Part shown: piece by piece, positions 9,901-39,041 of the stretch
Numbering within the stretch: the first letter of the stretch is position 1
Layout: each line of letters starts with the position of its first letter
IMG/VR virus record: IMGVR_UViG_3300031565_000023
Span: 1-62,785 of that record
Reading direction: 5' to 3' (one strand)
Source of the DNA: a virus
Lineage: Duplodnaviria > Caudoviricetes
Length of the DNA: 62,785 bases
Program-made: the position numbers and the translations under genes
The notes under the pieces: generated by a model
Told to the model about the DNA's origin: nothing
The model's database searches: none
The model's input: the letters and a program-made list of their open reading frames with translations, nothing else

Positions 9901-12900
9901 AGCCCTATCCGAAAACAAACCCGTTTCCCCCGAAGTCCTAAAGGACTATCCCGAGCTACAAAAGCCAGCCGAGGAAGCAAAGAAAAAAGAACCGACCAGG
10001 GAAAAATTCATCAAAGACCTGGAAATGAAAGGAGTAGCGACAGGATACGAAGGCGAAACCATCTCAATTCAACATAGTGATGAAAGCGGATACTATGTTC
10101 GCATCACCAAGGATGGCATCCGTACAGAGAAAGGTGGAGATCCCAAGGGCGGTGGTTGGGGCTTAGAAGAAGCCAGGGCAAAAGCCCTTGATATGGCTGG
10201 ATTTGAGGAAGCCCCGGAAGCAACCGAGAAAACCAATCCGGTATCCGAGTGGGTAGCTGATCGGGTCAGCAAGGGGAGACTCTTTGTTGCGAAGGATCTA
10301 TTCGATCAGGCCGATAAGTATTTTGGCGGCACACAGGCCCAGGGGAAGTATGTTGCCAAAGATGCCTATGAGTTGATGGAATTGGGCGTTAATCAATATA
10401 TTAAAAAGATCGGCATAGGATTTGAGCCAACTGGTGCTGTAAACAGTCCAGCAGTACATGAAAGAATTAAGTTACTAAAGCAGCTCGTCAACAAACTCCC
10501 CACTCAAACCCGAAGAACAACCGAATCCGGAGAGTTTCAGCAATTCTCTACTCCCCCTCACCTGGCCTTTGTGGTTAATTGGGTAGCCAACCTCAATAAA
10601 GATGATGTGGTCCTTGAACCATCTGCGGGAATCGGGGGGATCGCAGTATTCGCTAAAAACGCAGGGGTGTCAAAGGTAATCGTCAATGAACTGTCAAAGG
10701 ACCGGCTGGATCTGCTCAAACAGTTAGGCTTCGATGAATACTTCAATGAAAACGCAGAGCAGCTCGATAACATACTCCCCGATACCGTAAAGCCAACCGT
10801 AGTCGTTATGAACCCCCCATTTAGCGCTACTGCTGGCAGATTAGAGGGCAAAAGAGATACTAAATTCGCTACCAGGCATATCGAGCAGGCTATGGCAAGA
10901 TTAGAACCCGGGGGAAGACTGGTTGCGATTGTTGGTAAGGGAATGGGGATGAATGCACCGGCTTTCAGGGAATGGTGGAATAAGAAGGATTACAACGTCA
11001 GGGCCAATATTAGAATATCCGGGAAGGAATACCAGAAGTACGGCACTACGTTTGATAACAGAATAATAGTTATTGACAAAAACAGCAAAAAGAAGGATAA
11101 TATAATAACAGGCAAAGTCGAAAGTGTTGAAGATTTATTGCCTTTGTTGGAGGGAATAAGAAATGAAAGAAGCTATCAAGCTAAACGAGAGCCCACTAAA
11201 CCAACTGGCAAAGAGTCTGCTGAAGAAGGTAGAGCCGGAGTGGGGCGAGAACCTTCTTTACTTTCTACAACTGGCACTTTGGGGACTGAACCAGGAAGGG
11301 GTGAGCGTGAGGGGGAACAGGCCATTGAGGGAGAACGTGGAGGCCCTGGCGGCCTGGAAACCGGGGAACCTACAGAAGCTCATCTTCCCGAACGAGAACG
11401 GAGAGGACAGCGAAAGCGACCTTCTGAAACACCAAAAACCCCTGGACCTGGCGACAGAGCTATTGGAACACATAGACAGCCGACTTACCGCCACCCTGGA
11501 AAACTACCCTATCCCGAGGGATCTACCGGCAAACTTCAAGTAGGGGAAGAAAAGGGAAAGAAAGAGAAAAAAGCCCTTACTGACTCTATCTATGACGAAT
11601 ACACTCCCGAAAAAGTAAAGATCAAGGGCGCTCAAAAGCACCCTGGCAAATTAGTAGAATCTGCTGCCATGGCAGCAGTTGAACAACCTACCCCAACCTA
11701 CCAACCGGACCTCCCTAAAGAATCCATCGAATCAGGCAAAATTAGTGATGCTCAATTAGAGGCGGTAGTCTATGCCGGTCAATCCCACGAAAAGACCCTT
11801 CCCACAGGCGAGAGAAGGGGCTTTTTTATCGGCGATGGTACAGGTGTTGGCAAAGGCCGAGAAGCTGCTGCGATTATCCTTGATAACTGGAACAAGGGCA
11901 GAAAGAAATCGATATGGTTATCAGAGAAACAGGGATTAATAAAGGATGCGAAGCGTGATGTTGACGGGGTTGGCTGGAATTCTAAAGTTGTATTCCCATT
12001 AAACAAGACAAAAGCTACCGGCAAGATAGCACAAGAAAATGGCGTATTATTTACAACCTACGACACCCTAAAGAATAAAGCGCGAGACAAGGGAGATGTG
12101 GCCGGCAAGAGAAGGCTTGACCAGGTAGCTGAGTGGTTAGGTGAAGACTTTGATGGTGTTATCGTCTTTGACGAATCTCACAACATGGGAAATGCCATTG
12201 AAACTAAAGTCGGTGGTAGAAAGAAAGATCCTTCCAACAAAGCACTTACCGGGGTAGAACTCCAAAGAAGATTACCCAATGCAAGGGTCCTATATGTGTC
12301 TGCAACCGGCGCAACCGATCCGCTAAACCTGGCATACGCAACGAGGCTAGGATTGTTCGGGGAAGGTACGCCATTCCCCAATGTTGGTACATTTGTCAAC
12401 CAGATTGAAGCGCAGGGCTTGGCAGCTATGGAGTTAGTTGCACGAGATATGAAGGCTATGGGTAAGTACATTTCGAGATCCTTATCCTTCGATGGAGTAA
12501 CATACGAAAGACTTGAGCATAAACTCACCCGGGATCAGAAAGACATTTACAACGAACTTGCTGGTGGATGGCAGATCGTATTAAAGAATGTCCACGATGC
12601 ACTCAAAGCAACAGGCAGGGAAACGGAAACCGGAAAGCAAGTAACGGGGGCAAACAACGGTCAGGCGATATGGAGTCATTTTTGGAGTACGCAGCAGAGG
12701 TTTTTTAACCAGGTAATAACTGCCATGCAAGTACCATCTGCGATAAAGAGCGCAGAGAAAGATCTTAAAGATGGCAAGTCGGTTGTTTTTCAGCTTGTCA
12801 ACACAATGGAAGCAGCTCAAGAAAGGGCATTGTCAAGGATTGAAGAAGGCCAGGCGATTGAGGATCTTGACCTTACCCCGAAACAGCAGCTAATGGATTG

Positions 12901-15900
12901 GGTTGAAAGATCCTTCCCGGTCCAAGAATATGAAAAATATAAAGATGAAGATGGGAATGAGAGGGCAAGGCCGGTATTTGAGGCAGATGGTGAGACACCG
13001 GTAATAAACAAAGAAGCGGTAAGGATGCGAACCGAGCTGCTTGCAAAGATCGGCAGCATAAAGGCAGTTGATAACCCACTCGATCAGATTATCGATTACT
13101 TTGGGGCAGAAAATGTTGCCGAAGTAACCGGAAGGAAAGTAAGATTAATCAGGAAAGAAGGGGTTGAGGGGAAGGTAGAGGAAAAACTAGGGCTTTCTCA
13201 CAGGGAAAAAGACGCTGATGCCTTCATGGATGGCAAAAAGAGGGTTCTTATCTTTAGCGATGCCGGTGGAACCGGGAGAAGCTATGACGCAGATCGGAAT
13301 GTAAAAAATCAGCAAAGGAGATCCCATTACGTTCTTCAACCTGGATGGAGGGCTGATAGAGCAATTCAAGGCATGGGAAGAACGCACAGAGCAAACCAAG
13401 CGATACCGCCTCACTACGTTTTAGTCCATACGGATCTCGAAGCACAAAAAAGGTTTATCTCCACTATTGCAAGAAGGCTGGATCAGTTAGGCGCATTAAC
13501 TAAAGGCCAGCGTCAGACCGGAAGCCAGGGGTTCTTCCAGGCAAGGGATAATCTTGAAAGCCCTCATGCGATAGAGGCACTCCACGGCTTTATAGCCGAT
13601 ACCGCCTATGGACACAACGACATTGATATTGACGAGTTTTACAATCAGACAGGGCTAAGGCTTACGAGTGAGAAGGGCGGTTTGAACTTTATTGAGATGA
13701 AGCAATTTCTCAATCGCTTGCTCTCATTAAAAACAGATTACATGAATAGGGTTTTCAGCGCCTATCAAAAGAAATATGATGAAGTGATTGAGCGTCATAT
13801 CAACAATGGAACACTTGATAAGGGCATTGAAACATTACGAGCTGACAAGGTAGAGAAGGTATCGAGCCAGAAAGTATATACCCACAAGGAAACAGGCGCA
13901 GAAACACACTATGTTGAGATTGACGCTACCCGACCAGCCGACCTCATTAAATACGAAGAAGCAAGGGACGCCTTTAGGGGAGGCACGGCCCAAGGGATTT
14001 TTCAGAACATAAGTAGTGGTAGGGTATGGGTTGCATCTTACAAGAGATTTCACACAGATCCGAATACAGGCAGCATAAATGAATACTACGCACTACTATC
14101 CCCGGCAAGGCATTATCAAACAGCGAAATCCTATGTATTTGAAGATAAGGAAAAATGGAGATCCCTAACCGATGCCGAGTCAAAGGAATTATGGAACAAA
14201 GAATATGCCGATCAGCCGAAAACCGTAACTGATCGAATCCACATGATTACAGGGGTTATCCTTCCAATATGGGATAGGATAAAGGGAAGTACCCGGATAA
14301 TAAGAACACAAACAGATGAAGGGGAAACCCTTTTAGGCCGGATGATCGACCCTGCTCACGTTACGAAAACCCTTCAAAGCCTTCAAGCAGAGCTGAAAGC
14401 ACCAAAGGAAACCCCGGCACAGATCGTTGATAAAATACTGAAAAACAACTATGTGGCTGAACTTGCAAATGGCTGGATAATCAAAAGGGTTAAGTCCTAT
14501 CAGGAAAACAGGATCGAGATAGATGGTCCTGATTACTCACACATGAGGGAATTAACGAGGGCTGGTGTTTTTACGGAAGTCATCGATTACGATACTCGCT
14601 TTTTCATCCCCACCGGGGAAGATGCAGCCAAGATATTTAAGCAGATAACAGAGAGCAGACCGGTATTGAGTTTAAGACCACATAAGCCTGCTACCGCTAC
14701 GTTTGCCAGGGCAGCCAAAGAGGCTGCCGGGATCCCGGTTGAACAAATAAAAAATACAATCACTCCCATCTTAAAAAACCTCAAAGGATTAACCCCTGGG
14801 GTTAATGTGGTTAGCTCAATCTCCGAGCTTTCCCCTGAATTGCAAAAAGAGGCGGGAAAAGTAGCCGGTGCCGGGGTAAAGGCCGTATTTGATAGCGAAA
14901 CCAACGAAATAACACTTGTTGCCGAAGGGCTTTCAAGTATTGAAGAAGCCCAGGAATCACTTTTCCATGAGCTGTACGGTCATTATGGCCCAAGAAAACT
15001 TTTTGGCAGATCTTTTGATCCCTTCCTGGCACAAGTCTATAATGCCTATGGTCCCAAACAATTACAAGACATAGCAGATCTCTATGGCCTTGATTTCAGC
15101 AAAAGGGAAGATCGGCTTACCGCAGCCGAAGAAAAACTGGCACGGATGGCCGGGAAGAATGAAAAGCCTGGTCTTTTAAAAAGAGTATATGCCTATATCA
15201 AAAATTGGCTGCGAAAGATGGGTTTTAATATAAAGCTCAACGATGATGATCTTAAAATAATTGTTGGCGCAACAAAAAGGGCAATAGAGGAAGGATACGA
15301 CATCGGGGAATTAAGGGGAGCTGCAACAAGATTTGCCAGGGAGAAAGAAGCAGGAAAGGCCGAAGAAGTCCTAAAGCAATTCCCGGTAAAATATGAAGGC
15401 ATACAGAAAGGCTTTTTAGGTGCGGAAGATGTAGTTGTATTCAGAAACAAGAAGAATGAAGAATTTAAAGTGCCGGTATCCGAGTTTAATGAGGAAGCGG
15501 TCAGAAAAGCACTAGGCATAAAAGCGCCATCACCGCAGATGGGCTTTAGGTTTGCCAAAGAGAAAGAAGTGTCTCCCACTAAAGAGCCGATGGCTGCCCT
15601 GCCCTCTCAAGTAAGGCCGAGGATCGAGGCAGCAAGGGGGATACCGAAGCCAACCATAGTGCAGAGATTAGAGAAGTTAGGCACACAGATCATGGCATCT
15701 ACCACTCGTCACTGGCCTTTGCTCGACCCGAAAGAACATGGATTTGCGATAAGTAATTTGAGAAGGTTTCAGGAGATCCCCTCATATGCAAAAGACGCAG
15801 GGATGAATCATCTTAAAGATGTGCTATCCGGCCTTACTCCCCAGGAATATGATGCGTTTTCCATGAATCTGCTCTTATCAGATATGATGCACGACATTGA

Positions 15901-22109: not shown

Positions 22110-22270
22110 TGATGTTAAGACCACTTTACACTAAACATATCGGCACTCACTGTTTTGGTGATCCTGATACGGTTGGGACAATAAGGATTCGCCAGGATGG
22201 GACAGATTATGTAATGGAGGTTTATGCGGGAGGTGATGTTTGGAATGAAATGGAAAGAAAGGGTCTTTAA
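22109..22270 (+). CDS. Small 53-aa protein (below the ORF-track cutoff)
   Basis: TAATG coupling with the upstream gene; MMLRPLYTKHIGTHCFGDPDTVGTIRIRQDG... Confidence 0.55.
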   Translation: MMLRPLYTKHIGTHCFGDPDTVGTIRIRQDGTDYVMEVYAGGDVWNEMERKGL

Positions 22271-25085
22271 AATTGCTTTGATTTCCTTCTTGTTGTTCCC
22301 GTCTATAGCGGGGGGAACGGATATAACCTGGCCCACCGGATCAACCCTTACTTTTGGCACTACTCAATGGGATGATGGTTCGGATAAATTTGATGGGGAG
22401 GTATGTTCTGATGATAGTGTAGATGATGATGCTATAGATTTCTCGTCTGACAATTCGGGCGATACCGTATCCATAACTGATATGTTGAGTAGTGGCCCAG
22501 GATCAGGTGAAGATGAGATTAAATTATGTGGCGTTAGTTTATTGGTAATGGCAAGTTTTATTTTTGTCAATACTTGCTTTGCCGTATCTGCAATAGAGGT
22601 ATTAAGGCCAACATCAGACGTAGATGTTAATATAGCAAATACCAGCGATGGTGGAGGAGTTCACTACACAGAAGTAGATGACCAGCTTTCGGATGCTGGT
22701 GCAACTGTTGTTTATACAGATGCTGGTGCAACTCACACTGTAGAGTATGATTTATACGGTATTCAAAACCATAGCGCAGCGAGTGTTGGAACGATTGAAA
22801 AAGTTTCTCTGGTAGCACTTACATCGTATGAGTGTCTTTATTCACCGCCTGCTTGTTTTGGAAAGATATATTTTAAACTAACAACCCATTCAACTACCTA
22901 TACTGCGTCTCCCCAAAACATAACTTCAGGATGGGCGAGTTATACAGAGGATTATGCTACCAACCCCTATACTTCTTCCGCCTGGACATGGGATGAAGTG
23001 AACGATTTAATAGCAGGGTTTGGATTTGATACACAAATTTATACATCGGGCGCTTGTTCTCTTTTTTATGTAAAGGTCACCTATACACTTCCCACTGGTG
23101 AAACCCTAAGACCAACCTCGGATTCAGATGTTAATTTAGATTCTACCGCTGGAGATAATTATACAGAAGTAGATGAGGACCCTATAAATTTGGCTGATTA
23201 TGTTTCTGAATCAGGTGTTGCAGGATATACAAAAGACCTCTACGGAATGGGGGATTCTGGTGTGGGGACTGGTACTATAAATAGTGTTACTGTGGTTTGG
23301 AGTGGTTATGGATATAAACCATGGTTCAATCCTGGAGGTGGTAATATAAAACCGACAGTAAAGATGGGTGGCACAGAGTATGATGGAAGTGAAAAAGAAT
23401 TATCTTTTGATTGGGCAAGCGGAGACCTCTATTCTCAAACATGGAATGAAAATCCAAACACTTCTTCTGCATGGACTTGGGCAAATATAGATGACTTAAT
23501 TGCAGGAATACAAATTAAATCTTATGATGCCGCGAGTGTTACCGCTGTAACTCAATTTTATGTAATAGTTGATTATACGGTAGAGGGGGGGGCCAGCTTG
23601 TCCGCCGATATTGACGCACTTATAAAGAAAGCCCTATCGGATGGCGTGGACCTGGATGCGTACCTTACAAAATCAATCCCAATAACACTTGACCTGGATG
23701 CGCTACTTAACCTTGTAGGCCAGACCAAAACGCTTGAAATCGATGCCTTATTGCAGAAGGCGGGAGTAGATACTTCCCTCTCCTTAGATGCCATTTTGCA
23801 GCAGCTTAAATCAGGCGAGATTTCCCTTGATGCCCTGCTCAATCAAGTGGGTCTTACAACTTCCTCAAGCCTGGATGCCATATTAGAGCAATCCGGAATA
23901 GTGCAGGTTTTTCTTGATGCCCTGCTCAATAAAACAGGGCTTACTGCTTCCTCAAGTCTGGATGCCATATTGCAGCAACTTAAATCGGGGCAAGTGTCTA
24001 TCGATGCACTTCTCAATGAGGTTGGACAGACAGACCAGGCTTCCCTTGACGCACTACTTAATGCTCTAGGTGTAAGTTCAACTGCGGAACTCGATGCCTT
24101 GCTAAATAAGATAGGATTAACCATATCCTCTAGCATTGATGCACTTCTAAACAAAGTTGGTCAAGCAAGCCAGTTAAATATTGATGCCCTTTTAAACGCC
24201 ATTGGCTTAACCTCAACTGCGGATCTCGATGCCCTGTTGTCAGAAACAGGGCTCACCATAACCTCCGACCTTGATGCGATCCTGGCAGCCATATACACGA
24301 AAACCATCTCCCTTGACGCTCTACTAAATAAAATGGGGATTGAGGCATCCCTGTCCATCGATGCACTCTTAAATAAGACAGGGCTTTTCTCAACCACAGA
24401 GCTTGATGCCTTTTTAACACAATTCAAGTCAGGGCAGCTTTCCCTTGATGCCCTGCTTGCTAAATATGGAGTGCTGTTTCAGTTAAATTTAGACGCACTC
24501 CTGGTGAAAGCGCAATCGGCATCAACCGAACTGGATGCACATTTGATTATGGTAGTTACCGAAAGCCTCTATCTCGACTCGCTATTAACAAAGGGGATTA
24601 CGGGTCACACCGAACTGGATGCGCTTTTAAATAAACTTGGAAGCACGTCTAGCGTTTTGCTTGATGGCTATCTTACGAAGTTAGGCCAGATCAGCGTAAC
24701 GCTGGATTCAATACTTCAAAAACAGGGAATCACAGTATCGGGGCTGGATGCCCTGGTGCAAGGAGAAATTCAAAAACCAATATCCCTGGACGCTTTTCTG
24801 TTTGTTGGAAAAACTAAAGATGTTTCGATTGATTCCTTGATTACTCAAACGCTGGGAAAGGAGGTGAATATTGAAGCAATCCTGCAAGGCCAGTATGGAG
24901 AAATCACCCTGCTCGATGCGCTGATCTACGCAACGCTCCTAAATGCTATACCAAGATTTGCATTGTATAGCACATTAGAGCAGCCCGCTTGCAAGGGATC
25001 TCCCGACCTGGCCTTTAAATCAAATTTAGAAATGCCGGAATTGAGATCGAAACTGGAAAAGTATCAGTTTTTCACAAACATTTAA
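22245..25085 (+). CDS. Fibre/adhesin-like protein: signal-like N-terminus, two repeated beta domains, long LDALL-repeat stalk
   Basis: LRPTSDxDVN...NPxTSSAWTWxxxxDLIAG occurs twice; about 30 LDALL-type repeats. Confidence 0.75.
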   Translation: MKWKERVFKIALISFLLFPSIAGGTDITWPTGSTLTFGTTQWDDGSDKFDGEVCSDDSVDDDAIDFSSDNSGDTVSITDMLSSGPGSGEDEIKLCGVSLLVMASFIFVNTCFAVSAIEVLRPTSDVDVNIANTSDGGGVHYTEVDDQLSDAGATVVYTDAGATHTVEYDLYGIQNHSAASVGTIEKVSLVALTSYECLYSPPACFGKIYFKLTTHSTTYTASPQNITSGWASYTEDYATNPYTSSAWTWDEVNDLIAGFGFDTQIYTSGACSLFYVKVTYTLPTGETLRPTSDSDVNLDSTAGDNYTEVDEDPINLADYVSESGVAGYTKDLYGMGDSGVGTGTINSVTVVWSGYGYKPWFNPGGGNIKPTVKMGGTEYDGSEKELSFDWASGDLYSQTWNENPNTSSAWTWANIDDLIAGIQIKSYDAASVTAVTQFYVIVDYTVEGGASLSADIDALIKKALSDGVDLDAYLTKSIPITLDLDALLNLVGQTKTLEIDALLQKAGVDTSLSLDAILQQLKSGEISLDALLNQVGLTTSSSLDAILEQSGIVQVFLDALLNKTGLTASSSLDAILQQLKSGQVSIDALLNEVGQTDQASLDALLNALGVSSTAELDALLNKIGLTISSSIDALLNKVGQASQLNIDALLNAIGLTSTADLDALLSETGLTITSDLDAILAAIYTKTISLDALLNKMGIEASLSIDALLNKTGLFSTTELDAFLTQFKSGQLSLDALLAKYGVLFQLNLDALLVKAQSASTELDAHLIMVVTESLYLDSLLTKGITGHTELDALLNKLGSTSSVLLDGYLTKLGQISVTLDSILQKQGITVSGLDALVQGEIQKPISLDAFLFVGKTKDVSIDSLITQTLGKEVNIEAILQGQYGEITLLDALIYATLLNAIPRFALYSTLEQPACKGSPDLAFKSNLEMPELRSKLEKYQFFTNI

Positions 25086-31052: not shown

Positions 31053-31096
31053 AAATCGGGTCTTAATCGGGTCTTACTATATAGTGCCTTTAGGCC

Positions 31097-31135
31097 AAAA
31101 AAAGCCACAACACATACTATATGTTGTGGTTTTTT
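31097..31135. terminator. Bidirectional intrinsic terminator between the convergent operons
   Basis: aaaaaaagccacaaca...tgttgtggtttttt hairpin with A and T tails. Confidence 0.75.
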
Positions 31136-31164
31136 GGTGGAGGCGGCGGGAGTCGAACCCGCGT
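31135..31164 (-). mobile_element. attP core = 3' end of a tmRNA (ssrA)/tRNA-like gene
   Basis: Minus strand reads ACGCGGGTTCGACTCCCGCCGCCTCCACCA (T-arm, acceptor strand, CCA); downstream of the integrase. Confidence 0.85.
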
Positions 31165-31224
31165 TTTACGCTGTAAGTGCTTGAAATTTAGATACCGGAT
31201 TTAGGATCGGGTCTTAATCGGGTC

Positions 31225-31602
31225 TTAAATTCTCCCTTTTGATAGAATTTCACAGGCATTTATCCTCATGTGAAGCAAATCCTGGCTATTTTTGAGTTTA
31301 ACTGTTCCCCTTTTCCCATCACGCAACTTAAATGTTACCAAGTAACCCTTGCCTTTTCTTCTAATCTTAATGGGTCTATCTACAAGCCAATCTATATAAG
31401 CCTCTATGATGTTATCAAAAGTTTTTGGCCCGATTCCCCTTACCCCTAAAAGATCTTTCCTTTTCATTTTTTTTAATTGCTCAAGAGTTCTAATGCCTGA
31501 ACTTTTGAGAAAGCCAATGGTTTTGGCTGGAAGCTCTAGTTTGTCTATTCCCTGTAGGCCCACATATTGTATCCCTGTTGCCTCATTGTTATCGTGCATC
31601 AT
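31225..31602 (-). CDS. Protein with an RNA polymerase alpha C-terminal domain-like (HhH) fold
   Basis: IDKLELPAKTIGFLKSSGIRTLEQL...DLLGVRGIGPKTFDNI matches the alphaCTD pattern. Confidence 0.75.
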   Translation of the reverse strand: MMHDNNEATGIQYVGLQGIDKLELPAKTIGFLKSSGIRTLEQLKKMKRKDLLGVRGIGPKTFDNIIEAYIDWLVDRPIKIRRKGKGYLVTFKLRDGKRGTVKLKNSQDLLHMRINACEILSKGRI

Positions 31603-32687
31603 TCATCTTCCCCCTTCTTATCCTTGAGCTTAATAACTTTGCCCTTCTTCCGTTCTATAATTTCCTGGGTGCTATCATAGTGTTCATATCTCTGCGTAGT
31701 CCTAATATCTCTATGCCCCAATGCCTTCTGTAATCCCCTAATGTCTTTGGTATCCGCATACGCCTCTGTTGCGCTGCTATGCCTGGTAGCGCCATACATG
31801 GTTAGCTCTTTACTGTATTCTTTTTCATCCCTGGCCTTGTCAAACACCTTCCTCATTAATGATTCGTGAAAAGGTTTACCGTTATTATGAAAAACCCAAC
31901 CATTCGAGAGTCCTTTCCGGGGTAGCAGCATTTCCTTCACCTTGCTATGAAGGTGTTTACAAACCCAACCATCGTTTTTTGTGGTTTCCCTAAATGTGTT
32001 GTCGGAAAACGAGTTTCGTATGATTATCTGATTCTCGTCAAACAGTATGTCTTCCCATCGTAACGCCCGGACCTCTCCTGTCCTCAACAACTCCAGTCTC
32101 ATTGTGATAATGGCATCCACTACCATCGGGTTATCAATCGCACTCAAAATATCTTCCAGCACTTTCCATGAACAGGTTTTCCGGTACCGGTACCCTGGCT
32201 TTTTCCATGCAGGGAACCCCGGCATTTCTCTTATAACTTCATCTTCTTTGAGTTGCTTAAAGAATGAGCGCAACACACTCATAATGTTGTTTTTGGTTTT
32301 GGTGGTTTTCTTTAGCCCTTTATAAAACGCCTTGATCTCTTTTCCTACAATGTCTGCTATGTGGGTGTCTTTGAAGTGTGGGATAAGGACAGTCTGGATC
32401 TTGTTCCGGTAATCACTCCTGGTGCTTGGTGCAAGATCGGCATCATTCAGCCAATCCATAATAGCTACATCAAACGCCAGCTTCACCGCCTTCTTTGGTT
32501 TATAGTGGTCAGGATCAAAGGTTCTCTGCTCAATCTCGTCAAGGATCTTCCCCCTAACCCCGATAGCATAGCGCAGTTCAATCAGGCGTTTACCCTGCTT
32601 GTCGTGGTAAATCTGACAAGTACCATACCGCTTGTCATAGACGGTAAGAACAAAACTATCCTTTGTTTTTTGCCTTACCCCTTTCAT
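31599..32687 (-). CDS. int: Tyrosine integrase
   Basis: LRTGEV, TTK, YGATRH, LGH and TTQRY catalytic motifs; ATG 32687 has an RBS (ORF track starts at 32741). Confidence 0.92.
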   Translation of the reverse strand: MKGVRQKTKDSFVLTVYDKRYGTCQIYHDKQGKRLIELRYAIGVRGKILDEIEQRTFDPDHYKPKKAVKLAFDVAIMDWLNDADLAPSTRSDYRNKIQTVLIPHFKDTHIADIVGKEIKAFYKGLKKTTKTKNNIMSVLRSFFKQLKEDEVIREMPGFPAWKKPGYRYRKTCSWKVLEDILSAIDNPMVVDAIITMRLELLRTGEVRALRWEDILFDENQIIIRNSFSDNTFRETTKNDGWVCKHLHSKVKEMLLPRKGLSNGWVFHNNGKPFHESLMRKVFDKARDEKEYSKELTMYGATRHSSATEAYADTKDIRGLQKALGHRDIRTTQRYEHYDSTQEIIERKKGKVIKLKDKKGEDE

Positions 32688-32754
32688 TAGATCTGCCTCC
32701 CCCAATAGGGAAGGCATATCATTATGTGTGGATTTCGTCAACAGTTTTTACCTG

Positions 32755-32924
32755 TAGTTTAGTTTAGTGCAAGCGAGTTTAGTTTAGTCCAGGTAGTGCG
32801 AACCCAAATTAACAGAGGTGAGTATAATTTAGTCTAGGTTAAGCAATGCTAGGCCACACGAAAATAAAACAACTGAAACTAAAATAATCTAGCGAAATTC
32901 ACATTAACTCACGTTACTGTAGGT
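32755..32924 (-). ncRNA. 5-nt-periodic array 1 (34 units), putative guide RNA
   Basis: + strand tagtt tagtt tagtg caagc gagtt...; A at unit position 2 in 33/34. Confidence 0.75.
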
Positions 32925-33106
32925 TATCTTTTTTTCGTAAATGAAAAGACTTTTATAATTTCCTTTTTGTCAAACCGAGGCTTTCTTCCCCCCTGGGGTG
33001 AGCTATTATTCCCTGGCATCGAAAGAGAAAACATCTTCCTCAATTCTTCTTCCGTTATGCCCCCAACAGGCCACTTAACTAATTTGTATCCTCTTAAATA
33101 TTTCAT
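32924..33106 (-). CDS. Small basic protein, possible excisionase
   Basis: Upstream of int; YL...P...GGRKPRFDKKEI resembles a Xis wHTH; no RBS at this ATG. Confidence 0.5.
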   Translation of the reverse strand: MKYLRGYKLVKWPVGGITEEELRKMFSLSMPGNNSSPQGGRKPRFDKKEIIKVFSFTKKR

Positions 33107-33230
33107 AGTGAAGTTTAGTGCAAATCAAGGTAAAAGATTTCAACATAAGCAAAATAAGTCTAGGGTAAATAACAAAAAAATAGGTAAGATCAAGCCAAGC
33201 AAGTCCAAGAGAGTTCACGATAGATTATTT
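33106..33230 (-). ncRNA. 5-nt-periodic array 2 (25 units)
   Basis: tagtg aagtt tagtg caaat caagg...; A at position 2 in 25/25. Confidence 0.75.
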
Positions 33231-33260
33231 GCTGGATCTACAATGCCTATTTGCATCCCT

Positions 33261-33430
33261 TAAAACAGGTCAGAGAAGAATAGATCAGTACAGAATGGTA
33301 AAGAATAAGTTGATTAAAGGAAAGTTAATAAACCCCAACAAAGCGCATCCTATTGCACAATAGTAGAAACAAATTTAGTTCAATTCGCTTGAGTTCAACC
33401 TAATCTGGCTTAATGTAATACACGCAATCT
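33261..33430 (-). ncRNA. 5-nt-periodic array 3 (34 units)
   Basis: taaaa caggt cagag aagaa tagat...; position 2 is A in 30 and G in 4. Confidence 0.75.
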
Positions 33431-33456
33431 ATTTCCTTGCCCCCCCCTTTAAGGTG

Positions 33457-33571
33457 TAGTGTAGATTAATAAAACGCAACTTATGGCAATATAATTTAGC
33501 TGACTTTAGTTCGACCGATAACAGCTTACCCCATGATAGAGCGCAATAGAACAGCCGAACACAAATCAAGA
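33457..33571 (-). ncRNA. 5-nt-periodic array 4 (23 units)
   Basis: tagtg tagat taata aaacg caact...; position 2 is A in 21 and G in 2; abuts the RAMP gene stop codon. Confidence 0.75.
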
Positions 33572-34207
33572 TTAGGCAAATTTACTAACCAAAAACCTTC
33601 CATATCCCCCTGACTTGTGGTAAGCACCGATCCCACGAAAGACCCCTGTTACCTCAAGTAGTTCTTTGATTTTCTCTTTGGGAACCATGCCTAGGGAAAC
33701 GATTGTAAACTTACACTTCCAGCCCTCTTTAAAACCAGGCATTTGAGATAAATGCCTTTGGCCTAATTTGTTTGCCGGGAAAGAGGTAAGTATTGTTTCT
33801 GGCCTTCTGAAATGTTCGGTGGTTCCTATGCCTATTAGCTTTTCCTTGATTACTATGTCTGAATTGACATAATCCCTGATTGTTTGCCTTCCGGCAACCT
33901 TCACCTTTCCACCACATTCATGCAGCGCCTTTGAAAGCCAGTATTGTATAGGGATCGCAGGAGTTATCCCTTCCTTTTTCATTCGCTTTAATAGATCCTC
34001 TGTTTCAACAACATTTCCGTTCTCCATTTCTTCGTCTGTCCTTGCAAATCTCTTATCATCGGTTGTGTAAAACTGAAACATATTATACTTCTTTACTGCG
34101 CCTTGAGTGGGTGAGGTTCCTTCTAAATCATCAGCTAAAGACCAAAACCTGTCAAACAACAAATCTTTCATTCCTTCTATTTCTGCTTCGTACTCTTTGA
34201 TTTTCAT
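33572..34207 (-). CDS. Stand-alone RAMP/Cas7-like RNA-binding protein
   Basis: N-terminal strand YEAEIEG..DLLF, GWKCKFTI strand and C-terminal Gly-rich loop GIGAYHKSGGYGRFLV; AAGGGAG RBS. Confidence 0.8.
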   Translation of the reverse strand: MKIKEYEAEIEGMKDLLFDRFWSLADDLEGTSPTQGAVKKYNMFQFYTTDDKRFARTDEEMENGNVVETEDLLKRMKKEGITPAIPIQYWLSKALHECGGKVKVAGRQTIRDYVNSDIVIKEKLIGIGTTEHFRRPETILTSFPANKLGQRHLSQMPGFKEGWKCKFTIVSLGMVPKEKIKELLEVTGVFRGIGAYHKSGGYGRFLVSKFA

Positions 34208-34231
34208 GTTTTTTCTCCCTTCAAAAAAGTT

Positions 34232-34391
34232 TAGGTTACAGTAATAAAAGCGAATTTAAACGAGCTTAAAACAATTAAACCCAGGGTAGAGTAGTTTAGT
34301 TCAGCCAAGTAAAAAATACTTTACATAACGAAAGTTGAAATTAAGCTAAATCAAGAATGTCCAGTAAAGGGAAAGTCAGCATAAACGACAT
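34232..34391 (-). ncRNA. 5-nt-periodic array 5 (32 units)
   Basis: taggt tacag taata aaagc gaatt...; A at position 2 in 31/32; lies between the bet stop and the RAMP RBS. Confidence 0.75.
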
Positions 34392-34393
34392 TA

Positions 34394-35509
34394 TTAAGCT
34401 GCTGCTTGCGCTTTTCTCTTTGCTGTAGCCCACGTCCACATCTTGTGAAGTTGTTTTTCGTTCATTTCCTGGATGGGCTTTTCCATCATGTCTTCATCAA
34501 CGTTGATCTTCTTTAGCAGCTCTCTTAGGGCTGACATCTTATCTTCTATCTGGACATTCATAAAATCTTCTTCATTTGTGACCGGATCAAGCGATGGATC
34601 GCTCGATGAATCAATCGATTTCTCCGGCTCTTTCTCTTTGTCCTTCTTCCCTTTGGCCTCATTTTTAGCTTTGGCCTTCCCCTTTTTCTCCGGAGGAGCT
34701 TTCTTTTTCTCAACCCACTTGGAAAATGAAGGCCAAAAAGTTTCATCATTGGTGGCCGCCTCTTTTGCCTCTGCAACCGTACACTTATTGCTAGCTGCGC
34801 TAGCCGCGAGAAACTCACCCAACAAGGCCATGTCCGTTTCTTTCGGTATGTTCTTGTCAAAGTCTTTTGCTGCCTCTGTTTCCTTTCCCACATCGGTGAA
34901 GTCCGCCTCAATGGTCTCGCCCCCCTGGGATGCTTCGGCATCAACATAGAGCTGCTGAAATTCATCGGGCCATATAGATCTCAACCCCTGGGCCTCTGCT
35001 ACTTTGCTAATCATGGTAGGCTGGTTTTCTTCTTTCCAAAAGCGGGTGATCTTCCCTTCGGAGGTTTTTTTCAGATAGCCTTTGAGGTTTACTTCCAGCT
35101 CAAAAGGCTCAATCCATCCCTCCGGGGTGGCCCTAAACCAACCGCCCAGGAGTGTTTCGCCTTCAAGCAGCAATCCCTTGCTGTACTTGATTTCTCCGTC
35201 TTTGGTTTTAACTATGATCCCCTTGTTCCAGCCCTTGCAGTCCGGCATGGATTTTGCCCGGGACCTCAGATAGTCGATGGATACCACGATTGCAGCGTTA
35301 TCCTTCTGGCTGTACTTAATCAGGTACACATCTTTCTTGAATGGGTTTAGCCCTTTGCTCTTACAAATTTGTAGAAAGTAAAAAAGCTCCTGGTCGGTAA
35401 CAAGATCGGCGTCGCCACTTACCAGGAATTTCCGGCAATCATCAAAGGACAGGGTTATCTGCTGCTTGTCCTTTGATTCGTACTTCACTACTCGTCTTTC
35501 TGCCTCCAT
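34394..35509 (-). CDS. bet: Phage single-strand annealing recombinase (Bet/RecT family)
   Basis: GLNPFKKDVYLIKY and W...PTMISKVAEAQGLR..WP...LY. Confidence 0.88.
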   Translation of the reverse strand: MEAERRVVKYESKDKQQITLSFDDCRKFLVSGDADLVTDQELFYFLQICKSKGLNPFKKDVYLIKYSQKDNAAIVVSIDYLRSRAKSMPDCKGWNKGIIVKTKDGEIKYSKGLLLEGETLLGGWFRATPEGWIEPFELEVNLKGYLKKTSEGKITRFWKEENQPTMISKVAEAQGLRSIWPDEFQQLYVDAEASQGGETIEADFTDVGKETEAAKDFDKNIPKETDMALLGEFLAASAASNKCTVAEAKEAATNDETFWPSFSKWVEKKKAPPEKKGKAKAKNEAKGKKDKEKEPEKSIDSSSDPSLDPVTNEEDFMNVQIEDKMSALRELLKKINVDEDMMEKPIQEMNEKQLHKMWTWATAKRKAQAAA

Positions 35510-35524
35510 AATAACTCCTTTCTG

Positions 35525-36208
35525 TTAGGTTTTAAAAACTGTGGACTTCTTTTCATAAATAGTTATGCCTTCGATCTTTTTGATTCCTGTCTTAATCGCA
35601 GCTCGTACTTTCTTCTCGTCAAGCATGAGGTATTTCCTGGGTACTTTGTCAAGCTCGACTTTATCCGGGTCGAAAGTCATAACTCCCCTTTGATGTGCGG
35701 TTCCGCTTGCTGTCCGATGGATTGTTTTTTCTTCCGGTATTGTTTGCATCTGTACCTTCTCCGGCTCGATCCCCTGTTCTTTTGCCTCTGCGTTTAATTT
35801 CTCCTGTAGCTCGGCTGCTGCTTCGTTAGCCTTTTTCTCTGCATCCCTCCGATCCTGCTCTACCTGCGCATCATATTGTCTTATCTTTCTACCCGCTTCT
35901 CCTTCAACGAGCTTTAGCTTCTCCGTAAACAGTTTGCAAAACTTATTAACAGCGGTAAAACGGTTGTAGGGGATCTCGTTTATTTCCTTCCTTCTTTTCT
36001 CTATTTCATTCCCCAATCTTTTTGCATCTGTGCCTTGACTCGTTGCCTTTTTTACGCTTTCATCATCTATGACCTTCAGATCTTTTGCTTCTTTCACCAG
36101 GCGGTTAAATTCGGGCTCATATTTCTCTATGATCGCTAACTGCGACTCTAGGCTGGGTAACGTTATGAGCGTTAAACCTTCTTCCTGTTTTGAAAAATCT
36201 ACAGCCAT
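35525..36208 (-). CDS. Coiled-coil recombination-module protein
   Basis: C-terminal VPRKYL.LDEKKVRAAIK.G...IEGITIYE; context. Confidence 0.7.
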   Translation of the reverse strand: MAVDFSKQEEGLTLITLPSLESQLAIIEKYEPEFNRLVKEAKDLKVIDDESVKKATSQGTDAKRLGNEIEKRRKEINEIPYNRFTAVNKFCKLFTEKLKLVEGEAGRKIRQYDAQVEQDRRDAEKKANEAAAELQEKLNAEAKEQGIEPEKVQMQTIPEEKTIHRTASGTAHQRGVMTFDPDKVELDKVPRKYLMLDEKKVRAAIKTGIKKIEGITIYEKKSTVFKT

Positions 36209-36344
36209 GTTCTCACCCCCTTTTTTAAAAGATTTTCATTAAAAAATACTTTATGATCAACCACCACACTAAAGCGCAAAACAGAATACAAGCCCACCAG
36301 CTCAACGCTTTATACCAATCTACGCTAATCATGTTTGCCGCCCC

Positions 36345-36908
36345 CTATGCTGCGTTAAACCACCTATACGCATTGAGCGCATCCAAAAAATGTTTAAGAT
36401 CACTGGCGCTCTCTTTATACCAATGCACTCTAGGCAGCTTCCCATCACGATCCAATGCCAGGCTGCCGATGTGTGTTATTGTGTAGCCATTTACATTTGC
36501 CAGGTGCATGTAGGCTGCCAGTTGAGCAGCCCATATCCTCTTTAGCTTCGCTGTAGGGATCGGGGTTTTGAGATCGAGCATGGATAACTCCCCCGGCCCA
36601 TCGTCATTCATTTCCACGATTAAGTCCGGGTGTCCTGAAAACCCTAGCTTTTCATCCTTGAGGGAAATTTCCGTATCAATAACCTCTTTCACGTTATTAT
36701 CTAGGAAGTACCGGAAGGAAGAAATGTATCCCCCGTAGATGGGGTTTATAATCGGAAATAGGCCCCGGCCTATGGTTGAGCAGATCCGGTGGATATTCGT
36801 ACCATGATAGGCTTTCTCTTTGAACCGGGCCTTTAGGTTGGGATACCTCTCAAGATCACTATACCCGGAGTAGGGGGAAAGCGCTGTTGTAACGCTGTAG
36901 AATTTCAC
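36345..36908 (-). CDS. PD-(D/E)XK exonuclease
   Basis: SVTT, GTNIH, E, GHPDL, LDLKT and QLAAY. Confidence 0.85.
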   Translation of the reverse strand: MKFYSVTTALSPYSGYSDLERYPNLKARFKEKAYHGTNIHRICSTIGRGLFPIINPIYGGYISSFRYFLDNNVKEVIDTEISLKDEKLGFSGHPDLIVEMNDDGPGELSMLDLKTPIPTAKLKRIWAAQLAAYMHLANVNGYTITHIGSLALDRDGKLPRVHWYKESASDLKHFLDALNAYRWFNAA

Positions 36909-36912
36909 TTAC

Positions 36913-37086
36913 TTATTCCTCGTCTGGACTTATAGTTTGGGAATATGACCACTTCATCAATTCCATCACCGTACATTTAGATGGAAGGCTGTCGGTGTGT
37001 GTGATCCAGTTGGCCACCAACTCGTCCAGGCTTTTGTGTAGCTCCACGTGGCGCTTCCTGTGTTTCTCAATATTACTATCTGTCAT
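36913..37086 (-). CDS. Small 57-aa protein (below the ORF-track cutoff)
   Basis: AAGGGG RBS; MTDSNIEKHRKRHVELHKSLDELVANWI... Confidence 0.55.
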   Translation of the reverse strand: MTDSNIEKHRKRHVELHKSLDELVANWITHTDSLPSKCTVMELMKWSYSQTISPDEE

Positions 37087-38576: not shown

Positions 38577-39041
38577 TTATTCATCGTCGGGGGGAGAGGC
38601 ATCCGGATAAAACTCTCCTGTCTTTGGATTGATTGCGCCAGGTCCTACCCCTGGATAAAACTCTCCTGTCTTTGGATTGATTGCGCCAGATCCTACCCCC
38701 GGGTAAAACTCCCCACCTTCACCCACAACACCTTCTTTTACTCCCGGATAATATTTCCCACTAGGGCCAACTGCCCCTTGGTGTTTAGGCTTTACGTCTA
38801 TGGTTTTTTGTTGACTAGCTTCTTTTTCTTTAAAAGACCCCCTATATCTCTTAATGGTTTCTACGGCATATTCCCCATCAAGCCCCTTTCCCTGGTAGCC
38901 TTCTTCTGCTTTTCCCTCATTCTCTGTCGCAGGGGCATTGTCTCCCCCTTCGTCCCCATGGGAAAAGCCACAGATCAAAGCGATTGCTAAAGTTGTGACA
39001 AAAATTGATTTCAATGAAAGCATAATGATCAGTTTTTTCAT
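38577..39041 (-). CDS. Secreted protein with 16-aa GEFYPGVGxGAINPKT repeats (possible lysogenic conversion/exclusion)
   Basis: Signal peptide MKKLIIML...; 48-bp tandem repeats at 38605-38712; co-oriented with the repressor. Confidence 0.65.
   Translation of the reverse strand: MKKLIIMLSLKSIFVTTLAIALICGFSHGDEGGDNAPATENEGKAEEGYQGKGLDGEYAVETIKRYRGSFKEKEASQQKTIDVKPKHQGAVGPSGKYYPGVKEGVVGEGGEFYPGVGSGAINPKTGEFYPGVGPGAINPKTGEFYPDASPPDDE

What the first reader, a model, noticed from the sequence alone, without database searches (positions are those of the whole stretch)
32755..33230. Scaffold triplet is Y-T-R on the sense strand (not GGY) and is loosely conserved: possible new code variant
Seen: in arrays 1 and 2, + strand position 3 is a purine in 28/34 and 21/25 units and position 1 is a pyrimidine in 25/34 and 16/25, while positions 4-5 look unconstrained. 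On the strand of the RAMP gene the unit is NN-(Y)T(R), with only the U nearly invariant. My recollection is that described viral arrays use GGY/NN. Inference: this subfamily reads a single pyrimidine per unit, and GGY-based searches would miss it.
Basis: partly seen in the sequence, partly recalled or inferred. Interest (0 to 1): 0.82.

Follow-up and report, generated by a model that had tools for sequence, protein, structure and literature searches.

The report
Phage VIPR guide arrays without GGY
A soil phage carries a small CRISPR-like (RAMP) protein gene surrounded by 154 five-base repeat units whose only fixed letter is one U instead of the published GGY motif, so it is an unusual variant of the recently described VIPR RNA-guided system.

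Summary
Five intergenic arrays (154 five-nt units, 32755-34396) are the only period-5 signal in the 62.8-kb window. On the + strand the unit is Y-A-R-N-N, with A in 145 of 154 units, Y in 107 and R in 123.

The 211-aa gene between the arrays (33572-34207, - strand) encodes a Cas7-like RAMP. A profile of its eight closest relatives matches the solved "SUSP1 Vipr protein" (E 1.6e-09). This is therefore a VIPR locus in a temperate phage, beside the integrase and attP.

In 11 of 11 relatives' loci whose units are asymmetric, the arrays lie on the vipr sense strand. By analogy the RNA unit here is Y-U-R-N-N and contains no conserved G. The closest relative whose locus could be fetched (40% identity) also uses Y-U; a more distant clade member uses G-U.

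The residues that read the two Gs in SUSP1 Vipr (H17, R138, D177, W178) are all replaced here.

Non-GGY VIPR repeats are already in print (GAC/NN, CAC/NN, WGT/NN, TGH/NN; YNNNG, NNNNG), so this is a new variant, not a new kind.

Still untested: the transcribed strand, which positions guide, and the targets.

The parts
34222..34396 (-). Array A4: 35 five-nt units upstream of vipr. It begins at the RecT stop codon and ends 15 nt before the vipr ATG, at an AAGGGAG Shine-Dalgarno-like run.
   Evidence: + strand A at period 5 in 34 of 35 units.
33572..34207 (-). vipr: a 211-aa single-RRM RAMP with the G-loop GIGAYHKSGGYGRF.
   Evidence: AF2 model with pLDDT 89.2. Top PDB matches are all Cas7-type RAMPs. 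Clade profile A7 against PDB chain 36pp_D, 'SUSP1 Vipr protein': E 1.6e-09. No Pfam or PHROG match.
33457..33571 (-). Array A3b: 23 units, starting directly after the vipr stop codon.
   Evidence: A in 21 of 23 units.
33431..33456 (-). Non-periodic spacer between A3b and A3a (sense CCUUAAAGGGGGGGGCAAGGAAAUAG). Candidate short 3' tail.
   Evidence: it causes a one-base phase shift between the two arrays.
33261..33430 (-). Array A3a: 34 units.
   Evidence: A in 30 of 34 units.
33231..33260 (-). Non-periodic spacer after A3a (sense ...UUAAG|GGAUGCAAAUAGG...). Candidate tail; it resembles the stretch after A2.
   Evidence: Alignment of the five 3' flanks; sense-strand listing.
33096..33230 (-). 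Array A2: 25 firm units (33106-33230) plus 2 doubtful ones.
   Evidence: A in 25 of 25 firm units, 26 of 27 in all.
32924..33106 (-). 60-aa ORF between A2 and A1. Function unknown; it could be an accessory (vap) gene, an excisionase, or no gene at all.
   Evidence: No Pfam or PHROG match. The Atlas model has pLDDT 0.46 and all feature scores are below 0.9.
32755..32929 (-). Array A1: 35 units, ending 14 nt before the integrase ORF.
   Evidence: A in 34 of 35 units.
31599..32741 (-). Tyrosine integrase. Context: the VIPR locus sits at the lysogeny end of the phage.
   Evidence: PF00589 E 2e-16; phrog_1 E 4.6e-36.
34394..35509 (-). RecT-family annealing protein immediately upstream on the same strand (context).
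   Evidence: PF03837 E 1.1e-26; phrog_2760 E 1e-33.

Best explanation
This is a VIPR (Viral Interference Programmable Repeat) system of a temperate soil phage. The 211-aa Vipr RAMP is proposed to polymerise along long repeat RNAs made from the gene (-) strand, one protomer per 5-nt unit, holding the fixed part of each unit and presenting the variable bases for gapped pairing with DNA of competing mobile elements.

Its particular feature is the scaffold. The canonical G-G-Y is replaced by a pyrimidine followed by a nearly invariant U (sense unit Y-U-R-N-N, commonest unit CUAAA), and no G is conserved. I think the invariant U most likely occupies the purine-excluding 'Y3' pocket of canonical Vipr. 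In that register the unit is x-Y-U/N-N: the old G1 site is free, and the purine bias at the 'R' is the usual bias of the first guide base.

Shown here:
- the periodic arrays and their statistics;
- the RAMP fold and Vipr family membership;
- the loss of the G-contacting residues;
- the same Y-U unit at the closest relative's locus that could be fetched;
- sense-strand arrays in all relatives whose units are asymmetric.

Inferred, not shown:
- transcription from the - strand;
- RNP formation;
- the register;
- the pairing rule;
- the targets.
For: 1. Arrays. They are the only period-5 signal in the window and fill every intergenic gap around the gene.

2. Protein.
- AF2 model with pLDDT 89.2.
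- Foldseek gives 84 PDB chains at E <= 0.001, and the best listed rows are Csm3, Cmr4, type VII Cas7 and gRAMP.
- VIA-align ranks 1-16 are all CRISPR RAMP subunits, led by Csm3 6ae2_B at Z 9.9.
- Profile A1 against 'SUSP1 Vipr protein' (36pp_D): E 2e-23.
- Profile A7, the 8-member clade alone: E 1.6e-09, with the next hit at 0.13.
- hhalign of A1 against wV8 gp95: probability 99.6%, E 8.7e-24. GGY/NN arrays flank gp95 on its own strand.

3. Independent recovery. A pattern of 22 A's spaced 5 nt apart, scanned over viral contigs, returned 118 loci. Three of them (L007, L013, L096) encode Vipr homologs beside the array, at hmmsearch E 3e-16, 9e-20 and 2.9e-12.

4. Strand. In L001, L240, L243-L246 (GGY), L096 and L247 (GAC), L013 and L007 (GUU) and L241 (G-U) the G-first unit is on the gene strand. 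That is 11 of 11 loci, and the 10 loci counted have 564 units on the sense strand and 0 on the antisense strand.

5. Clade. The window protein lies in a supported clade with P0002-4 and P0006-9. The locus of P0004 (L242, 40% identity) has T at position 2 in 102 of 123 units, and position 1 is T 50, C 30, A 31, G 12. The locus of P0009 (L241) has G-U with the frequent unit GUAAA, against CUAAA here.

6. Residues. The structure preprint (section read) says G1 is read by H17 and D177, G2 by R138 and W178, and Y3 by a purine-excluding pocket that includes R179. wV8 gp95 has exactly these residues at those numbers. The window protein has D, A, M, Y and H there.

7. Covariation. An acidic residue at position 177 is present in 6 of 6 GGY loci and in 1 of 7 non-GGY loci (Fisher p 0.005; not corrected for relatedness).

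8. Base at the invariant position (sense strand): U 145, C 7, A 2, G 0, as expected for a pyrimidine pocket.

9. Purine bias. The first guide base N4 of 564 units in 10 relatives is A 37%, G 27%, U 21%, C 14%. The window's 'R' position is A 43%, G 27%, U 19%, C 11%.

10. No self-target. The rest of the window holds no match above shuffled guides at skips of 0-3, as published for VIPR.
Against: - No RNA data. All 6 sequencing runs that hold the locus are DNA, so the transcribed strand is argued by analogy only.
- The unit Y-N-R is its own complement class, so the sequence alone cannot give the strand.
- The protein alone does not reach SUSP1 Vipr by phmmer. BLASTP against wV8 gp95 gives only E 0.007 in a five-sequence set. 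Family membership therefore rests on profiles and on the fold.
- The arrays are far longer (23-35 units) than published vrRNAs (9-16 units), and no long conserved 3' tail or ribozyme was found.
- The register is unresolved. Information content favours Y-U-R as the fixed triplet, and the purine shares of the next two positions (60% and 52%) fit the family's N4/N5 (65% and 53%) about as well as my preferred register does.
- Position 177 is E in L013, which has GUU, so the residue-to-base rule is not strict.
- No natural target was found, so the pairing rule is untested.
Confidence: 0.75

Rival explanations
1. Same VIPR system, but the arrays are transcribed from the + strand, antisense to the gene cluster. 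The RNA unit would be Y-A-R/NN with an invariant A.
For: The unit is symmetric in base class (Y-N-R), so the sequence fits either strand. A GAC/NN type with a central A exists in L096 and L247 and in print. A promoter-like site on the + strand lies inside A3b, but the number of such sites in the region is no higher than in shuffles.
Against: 11 of 11 relatives with asymmetric units have their arrays on the gene strand. The nearest clade members have G-U (L241) and Y-U (L242) on the sense strand, and CUAAA here parallels GUAAA there. Every gene from 31225 to 37086 is on the - strand, and the arrays abut stop and start codons as in an operon.
Confidence: 0.1
2. The arrays are decaying remnants of a G-U or GGY-type VIPR locus and no longer work. 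The loose consensus would be erosion, not a code.
For: Positions 1 and 3 are only 69-80% biased. The arrays are unusually long and lack clear tails. The relative L241 in the same clade has a cleaner G-U unit.
Against: The anchor base is kept in 145 of 154 units, and the exact 5-nt phase is kept over runs of up to 35 units. Neutral decay would destroy both. The vipr ORF is intact, has a Shine-Dalgarno-like run, and gives a confident fold. The separate locus L242 has the same Y-U unit. The G-reading residues are replaced across the subclade rather than lost by truncation.
Confidence: 0.1
3. The period-5 stretches act as DNA rather than RNA, for example as protein-binding iterons or as a recombination or replication element beside RecT and the integrase. 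The RAMP-like gene would be unrelated to them.
For: The locus lies between RecT and the integrase/attP. The arrays are AT-rich, with 30-37% G+C.
Against: Searching for the array pattern alone recovered Vipr homologs next to such arrays in three unrelated viral contigs. Period-5 arrays also flank Vipr homologs in all 8 other relatives' loci examined, for 11 of 11 in all. Five nt is not a DNA helical repeat. The published system is an RNA-protein filament with one protomer per 5-nt repeat.
Confidence: 0.05

Closest known systems
VIPR type II: Escherichia phage SUSP1 and Felixounavirus relatives such as wV8 gp95 (bioRxiv 10.64898/2026.04.26.720920 and 10.64898/2026.04.26.720927; sections read)
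   Same: A small single-RRM RAMP with a G-loop, encoded in a phage. 5-nt tandem units lie on the gene strand both upstream and downstream of the gene. There are no cas genes and no CRISPR array. The rest of the genome holds no self-target.
   Different: - Scaffold: Y-U with no conserved G, instead of G-G-Y.
- Contact residues: H17, R138, D177, W178 and R179 are D, M, A, Y and H here.
- Array length: 23-35 units, against 9-16.
- Tail: no roughly 40-nt pseudoknot tail, only a short UUAAGGG-like 3' motif.
- Accessory gene: no recognisable vap.
- Similarity: detectable by profiles only.
Non-canonical VIPR arrays: GAC/NN, CAC/NN, WGT/NN and TGH/NN in 21 clusters (bioRxiv 10.64898/2026.10.21.760802; passages and Methods 4.22 read), and NNNGG, YNNNG and NNNNG (April preprint, Methods)
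   Same: Period-5 arrays with a non-GGY fixed part next to a Vipr-like fold. L096 and L247 found here are GAC/NN, and L241 fits WGT/NN or YNNNG.
   Different: None of the motifs named in the text is Y-U-R or x-Y-U. Here only one base is near-invariant, and it is a U. The full lists are in Fig. S10A and Fig. S17, which are images I could not see. Supplements are closed. The motif may therefore already be among them.
Cas7 backbone subunits of class 1 CRISPR effectors (Csm3, Cmr4, Csf2, type VII Cas7)
   Same: The same RRM, G-loop and thumb fold. Both are proteins that polymerise along a guide RNA with a fixed register.
   Different: The period is 5 nt, not 6. The guide itself is a tandem array, with no spacer-and-repeat structure. 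There is no large subunit, Cas6 or adaptation genes nearby. The gene is encoded by a phage.

Membership tests
VIPR system | Vipr protein: a minimal RAMP (single RRM, G-loop, thumb) homologous to described Vipr | tested here: met
   AF2 pLDDT 89.2. Cas7-type RAMPs top both fold searches. Profile A1 against PDB 36pp_D 'SUSP1 Vipr protein' gives E 2e-23, and clade-only profile A7 gives E 1.6e-09. The single sequence alone gives no hit.
VIPR system | Tandem 5-nt repeat arrays in the intergenic regions flanking vipr | tested here: met
   Five arrays with 154 units; they are the only period-5 signal in 62.8 kb.
VIPR system | Repeat consensus GGY/NN (YNNGG), or the published relaxations NNNGG, YNNNG, NNNNG | tested here: not met
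   No position on either strand has a conserved G. On the sense strand G makes up 18, 0, 41, 32 and 27 of 154 at the five positions (derived). The consensus is Y-U-R-N-N.
VIPR system | Arrays on the same strand as vipr and expressed as roughly 100-nt vrRNAs that co-purify with Vipr | not testable with these tools
   No RNA run holds the locus. The strand is inferred from 11 of 11 relatives.
VIPR system | A conserved structured 3' tail after each repeat tract | tested here: inconclusive
   The 3' flanks of A3a and A2 share a motif of about 20 nt, and A3b and A4 have a UUAAAGGG / UUGAAGGG run. There is no Rfam family and no ribozyme. Array folding energies are not below shuffles in most cases (z from -2.5 to +1.4).
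VIPR system | Gapped (1-nt skip) pairing of the NN bases with double-stranded DNA targets in competing mobile elements | not testable with these tools
   Only a self-scan was possible. The best matches were 16-19 of 24 bases, equal to shuffled guides.
VIPR system | Minimal locus in a virus or provirus, without cas genes or a CRISPR array | tested here: met
   The window is a temperate phage with terminase, portal, major head protein, integrase and attP. No CRISPR-like repeat was found by TRF or Rfam.
VIPR system | An adjacent accessory gene (vap1-6) | tested here: inconclusive
   The only unassigned neighbour is the 60-aa ORF, which has no family match and a poor model.
Class 1 CRISPR-Cas effector | A CRISPR array plus several cas genes (large subunit, Cas5, Cas6, adaptation genes) | tested here: not met
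   The neighbours are RecT, exonuclease-like genes and an integrase. There is no CRISPR repeat.

The most novel reading that the evidence does not exclude
In this Vipr subclade the scaffold has shrunk from three fixed bases to essentially one U held in the pyrimidine pocket. This frees the former G1 site, so each 5-nt unit presents three consecutive variable bases. The gap rule would then differ from the published 2-paired/1-skipped code, for instance three target bases read per unit with no skipped base.

Weak hints:
- The three variable bases form only 2 stop triplets in 152 units, against 8.0 expected from their marginals.
- They fit the phage's in-frame codon usage better than column shuffles do (0 of 2000 shuffles reach the observed value).

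Against these hints:
- Frame 3 fits nearly as well as frame 1.
- Stop triplets are visible at the same positions in the relative L242 (unit lists; not counted).
Probability: 0.12. Interest if true: 0.8.

Novelty: new variant of a known kind. Interest (0 to 1): 0.5.

Why it matters
VIPR was described only in 2026, and its code is defined by GGY/NN. This locus and the relatives gathered here show two things.

First, the scaffold part of the repeat is evolvable: GGY, GUU, GAC, G-U and Y-U all occur. It changes together with the G-loop, thumb and beta-sheet residues that contact it.

Second, repeat callers built on GG[CT]NN will miss whole clades. A motif-free period-5 search recovers them.

A set of natural Vipr proteins with different scaffold preferences would be mutually orthogonal parts for multiplexed RNA-guided repression. 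It would also give a residue-to-base map for how RAMPs read their RNA handles.

Tried and rejected
Searches for relatives that found nothing:
- Word-index protein search: only the query itself.
- tblastn of the protein against the phage collection: no match.
- The search for related loci in viral contigs with A2, P0003, P0002, RecT, A6 and P0007.
- The search for related loci in metagenome contigs with A3.
- The search for related loci in genome contigs with A3.

False positives. Of the 118 loci returned by the A-every-5 pattern, 3 encode a Vipr homolog. The 6 further candidates I read (L039, L028, L088, L065, L109, L006) showed no such array, four of them being tandem repeats of longer period. 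The rest were not read one by one.

RNA evidence. No RNA holder was listed for the locus. Laying contigs of 4 DNA runs showed no variant inside the arrays, so population variation gave no clue to the guide positions.

Host. The 30-nt tmRNA core occurs in Acidobacteriota, Desulfobacterota and many others. None of 120 loci extends the match beyond the core, so the host stays unknown.

Genome samples. A Vipr homolog was found in 1 of 401 genomes sampled from the phylum of an Acidobacteriaceae genome and in 5 of 401 from the phylum of a Desulfocapsa genome. None belonged to the window's clade.

Self-targets. None above shuffled guides at skips of 0-3, for + strand positions 4-5 only. Other registers and outside databases were not searched.

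Strand from RNA folding. There is no consistent difference between sense and antisense.

Register from codon statistics. The differences are too small to decide.

The L242 handle. The motif AAUCRAAUUAC is absent from the window's arrays. The only sites within 2 mismatches are three: two inside the vipr gene and one within A3a.

The 60-aa ORF. It has no family and a low-confidence model.

Supplementary files and figure images of the three VIPR preprints could not be seen.

Full report
**The observation**

The finding's interval (32755-33230) covers two of five period-5 arrays.
- A sliding Fourier scan of the whole 62,785-base window puts period-5 power above mean + 4 SD only at about 32711-32950, 33071-33250, 33291-33470 and 34201-34400.
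- Reading each phase shows a + strand A every five bases: A1 32755-32929 (34 of 35 units), A2 33096-33230 (26 of 27; 25 of 25 from 33106), A3a 33261-33430 (30 of 34), A3b 33457-33571 (21 of 23) and A4 34222-34396 (34 of 35).
- Over all 154 units the + strand unit is Y (107) - A (145; G 7, T 2, C 0) - R (123) - N - N.
- The biases at positions 1 and 3 exceed the composition of positions 4-5 (p 6e-4 and 1.8e-19) and of the window.
- Tandem Repeats Finder does not report the arrays, because the units are too unlike each other.

**Surroundings**

All genes from 31225 to 37086 are on the - strand.
- The arrays fill every gap between RecT (34394-35509), a 211-aa ORF (33572-34207), a 60-aa ORF (32924-33106) and a tyrosine integrase (31599-32741).
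- A4 starts at the RecT stop codon and ends at the Shine-Dalgarno-like run of the 211-aa gene. A3b starts right after that gene's stop codon.
- Just beyond the integrase lies the 3' end of a tmRNA gene with a terminator hairpin, flanked by direct repeats. This is an attP.
- The record is a single-contig virus with terminase, portal and major head protein genes.

**The protein**

The 211-aa ORF matches no Pfam or PHROG family, and the word-index search found only itself.
- An exhaustive HMMER search found 21 relatives of 129-222 aa, with E from 6e-47 to 8e-4. They share a C-terminal glycine-rich loop.
- An AlphaFold2 model built on that alignment has mean pLDDT 89.2.
- Foldseek gives 84 PDB chains at E <= 0.001, led by Csm3, Cmr4, type VII Cas7 and gRAMP.
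- An aligner that does not depend on Foldseek puts CRISPR RAMP subunits at ranks 1-16, best Csm3 6ae2_B (Z 9.9, rmsd 3.4, 153 residues aligned).
- The family profile matches PDB chain 36pp_D, named 'SUSP1 Vipr protein', at E 2e-23.
- A profile of only the eight members of the window's own clade still matches it at E 1.6e-09, with the next hit at 0.13.
- The single sequence does not reach it.
- hhalign of the family profile against gp95 of Felixounavirus wV8 gives probability 99.6%, E 8.7e-24.

**What is known**

I read sections of three 2026 preprints from one group and passages of a fourth.
- bioRxiv 10.64898/2026.04.26.720920 (Results and three Methods sections) defines VIPR. It is a phage-borne Vipr RAMP with vrRNAs of 9-16 YNNGG (GGY/NN) units and a 3' tail. 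It binds double-stranded DNA through the NN bases with one target base skipped per unit, and it silences competing elements. Its Methods say that loci without YNNGG showed NNNGG, YNNNG and NNNNG repeats.
- bioRxiv 10.64898/2026.04.26.720927 (one section) gives the contacts. G1 is read by H17 and D177, G2 by R138 and W178, and Y3 sits in a purine-excluding pocket that includes R179.
- bioRxiv 10.64898/2026.10.21.760802 (passages and Methods 4.22) reports 21 clusters of VIPR-like arrays with non-GGY cores, naming GAC/NN, CAC/NN, WGT/NN and TGH/NN as examples.
- bioRxiv 10.64898/2026.10.15.759431 (passages) treats GGYNN only.
- Figures S17 and S10A, which hold the full motif lists, are images I could not see, and supplements are closed.

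**Relatives and their arrays**

- wV8 gp95 is flanked on its own strand by GGY/NN arrays with a repeated tail.
Three of them have a Vipr homolog next to the array. L013 and L007 have sense-strand G-U-U/NN, and L096 has G-A-C/NN, conserved in nearly every unit. The 6 further candidates I read showed no such array, four of them being tandem repeats of longer period.
- Genome samples gave L240 (GGY; 1 of 401 genomes) and L243-L246 (GGY) plus L247 (GAC) (5 of 401 genomes).
- Two members of the window's own clade could be fetched. L241 encodes P0009 and has G-U-D-N-N with the frequent unit GUAAA.
- L242 encodes P0004 (40% identical to the window protein). It has short runs of [T50 C30 A31 G12]-[T 102 of 123]-N-N-N, separated by an AAUCRAAUUAC handle.
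- In the 10 loci with an unambiguous triplet, 564 units lie on the gene strand and none on the other strand. L241 makes it 11 of 11.

**Phylogeny**

I built a maximum-likelihood tree of 26 proteins. P0005 was left out because its C-terminus diverges from the family.
- The window protein falls in a supported clade with P0002-4 and P0006-9.
- All loci with GGY, GUU or GAC arrays lie outside that clade.
- GUU occurs in two separate places: L013 beside wV8 (GGY), and L007 beside L096 (GAC).
- The scaffold therefore changes repeatedly in this family.

**Protein-RNA covariation**

wV8 gp95 has H17, E71, M72, R138, C173, D177, W178 and R179, exactly as named for SUSP1; position 175 is V, not the T named there.
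- At positions 17, 138, 177, 178 and 179 the window protein has D, M, A, Y and H. P0004 (L242) has N, M, G, N and H. P0009 (L241) has D, K, A, R and R.
- The G-loop triads of the GGY loci are DWR, DWR, DYR, DFR, DFR and EYR.
- The triads of the non-GGY loci are VWR and RFR (GAC), ELR and RFR (GUU), ARR (G-U), and AYH and GNH (Y-U).
- An acidic residue at 177 occurs in 6 of 6 GGY loci and in 1 of 7 others (Fisher p 0.005). The loci are related, so this is suggestive only.
- The window protein has thus lost every side chain reported to read the two guanines, in step with arrays that have no conserved G.

**Strand and register**

The strand is inferred, not shown.
- The unit is symmetric in base class.
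- No RNA run holds the locus.
- Folding energies do not separate the strands.
- The inference rests on the 11 of 11 relatives, on the operon-like packing on the - strand, and on the match between CUAAA (11 of 154 units, the commonest) and GUAAA of L241.

On the - strand the unit reads Y (U 64, C 59) - U (145) - R (A 66, G 41, U 30, C 17) - N - N.

Two registers are possible.
It carries the most information.
- Register (ii): the U occupies the canonical Y3 pocket and the preceding Y replaces G2. The former G1 site is then free, and the 'R' is the first guide base.
- For register (ii): the anchor admits only pyrimidines (U 145, C 7, A 2, G 0).
- For register (ii): L241's G-U fits the published WGT/NN or YNNNG classes.
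- For register (ii): the G1 contacts are lost.
- For register (ii): the first guide base of 564 units in relatives has almost the same composition as the 'R' position (A 37, G 27, U 21, C 14% against A 43, G 27, U 19, C 11%).
- This last point is weak, because the next position fits nearly as well.
- I prefer (ii) at roughly 60:40.

**Targets**

For + strand positions 4-5 and skips of 0-3, the best match in the rest of the window to any 12-unit stretch is 16-19 of 24 bases. Shuffled unit orders give the same. This agrees with the published absence of self-targets and says nothing about the rule. Outside databases could not be searched with gapped queries.

One weak hint concerns the three variable sense positions after Y-U.
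- They form only 2 stop triplets in 152 units, against 8.0 expected.
- They fit in-frame codon usage better than column shuffles do (0 of 2000 shuffles reach the observed value).
- Against this, frame 3 fits nearly as well as frame 1, and L242 has stop triplets at these positions in the unit lists (not counted).

**Verdict**

The feature is real. It is a VIPR-family locus of a temperate soil phage with an unusually large repeat load (154 units) and a G-less, U-anchored scaffold. That scaffold is shared with its nearest retrievable relative and is matched by replacement of the G-reading residues.

Non-GGY VIPR repeats are already in print, so this is a new variant of a known kind. Its main value is as a natural example of co-evolving scaffold and reader, and as a warning for GGY-based callers.

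Noticed in passing
window 31054-31228: attP-like site. The last 30 nt of a tmRNA gene (31135-31164, - strand) are followed by a terminator hairpin (31105-31129) and flanked by two 11-nt direct-repeat pairs (31054-31076 and 31206-31228), probably integrase arm sites. Metagenome contigs break at this core, and its depth there is 10-30 times that of the phage.
   Followed up: partly
window 31225-31602 (-): A 125-aa ORF between attP and the integrase carries an RNA polymerase alpha C-terminal-domain-like helix-hairpin-helix (PF03118, E 2.8e-9).
   Followed up: no
window 6911-18670 (+): A single 3919-aa ORF in the tail-gene region of a 62.8-kb phage. This is unusually large.
   Followed up: no
window 23787-24017 and 38603-38711: Tandem repeats of 87 nt (2.7 copies, inside the 953-aa ORF 22224-25085) and of 48 nt (2.3 copies).
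   Followed up: no
window 32756-32791, 33107-33122, 34288-34303: Four copies of a 16-nt stretch inside the arrays (sense ...CUAAACUAAACU...). They could be duplicated guide segments or a default unit left from array growth.
   Followed up: partly
L096 (viral contig), sense strand of 7800-8480 and 9100-10182: GAC/NN arrays of 21-27 units. Three of them are each followed by the same tail of about 35 nt (GUGUUUAUCACUCAGACAAGGAGGCUGUUUUUCCU). A further array lies about 800 nt upstream, beyond other genes.
   Followed up: partly
L242 (metagenome contig) 150-520 and 1270-1515: Short Y-U arrays of 6-9 units, separated every 50-70 nt by a conserved AAUCRAAUUAC handle. The architecture is quite unlike the long uninterrupted arrays of the window, although the proteins are 40% identical.
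   Followed up: partly
L245 (sampled genome of the Desulfocapsa phylum) 1-1480: At least 144 GGY/NN units fill about 1.5 kb upstream of a vipr homolog, up to the edge of the locus fetched.
   Followed up: no
protein P0005: This relative matches the family up to about residue 170 and then diverges completely, losing the G-loop. It may be a frameshifted or chimeric gene call. It was left out of the tree.
   Followed up: no
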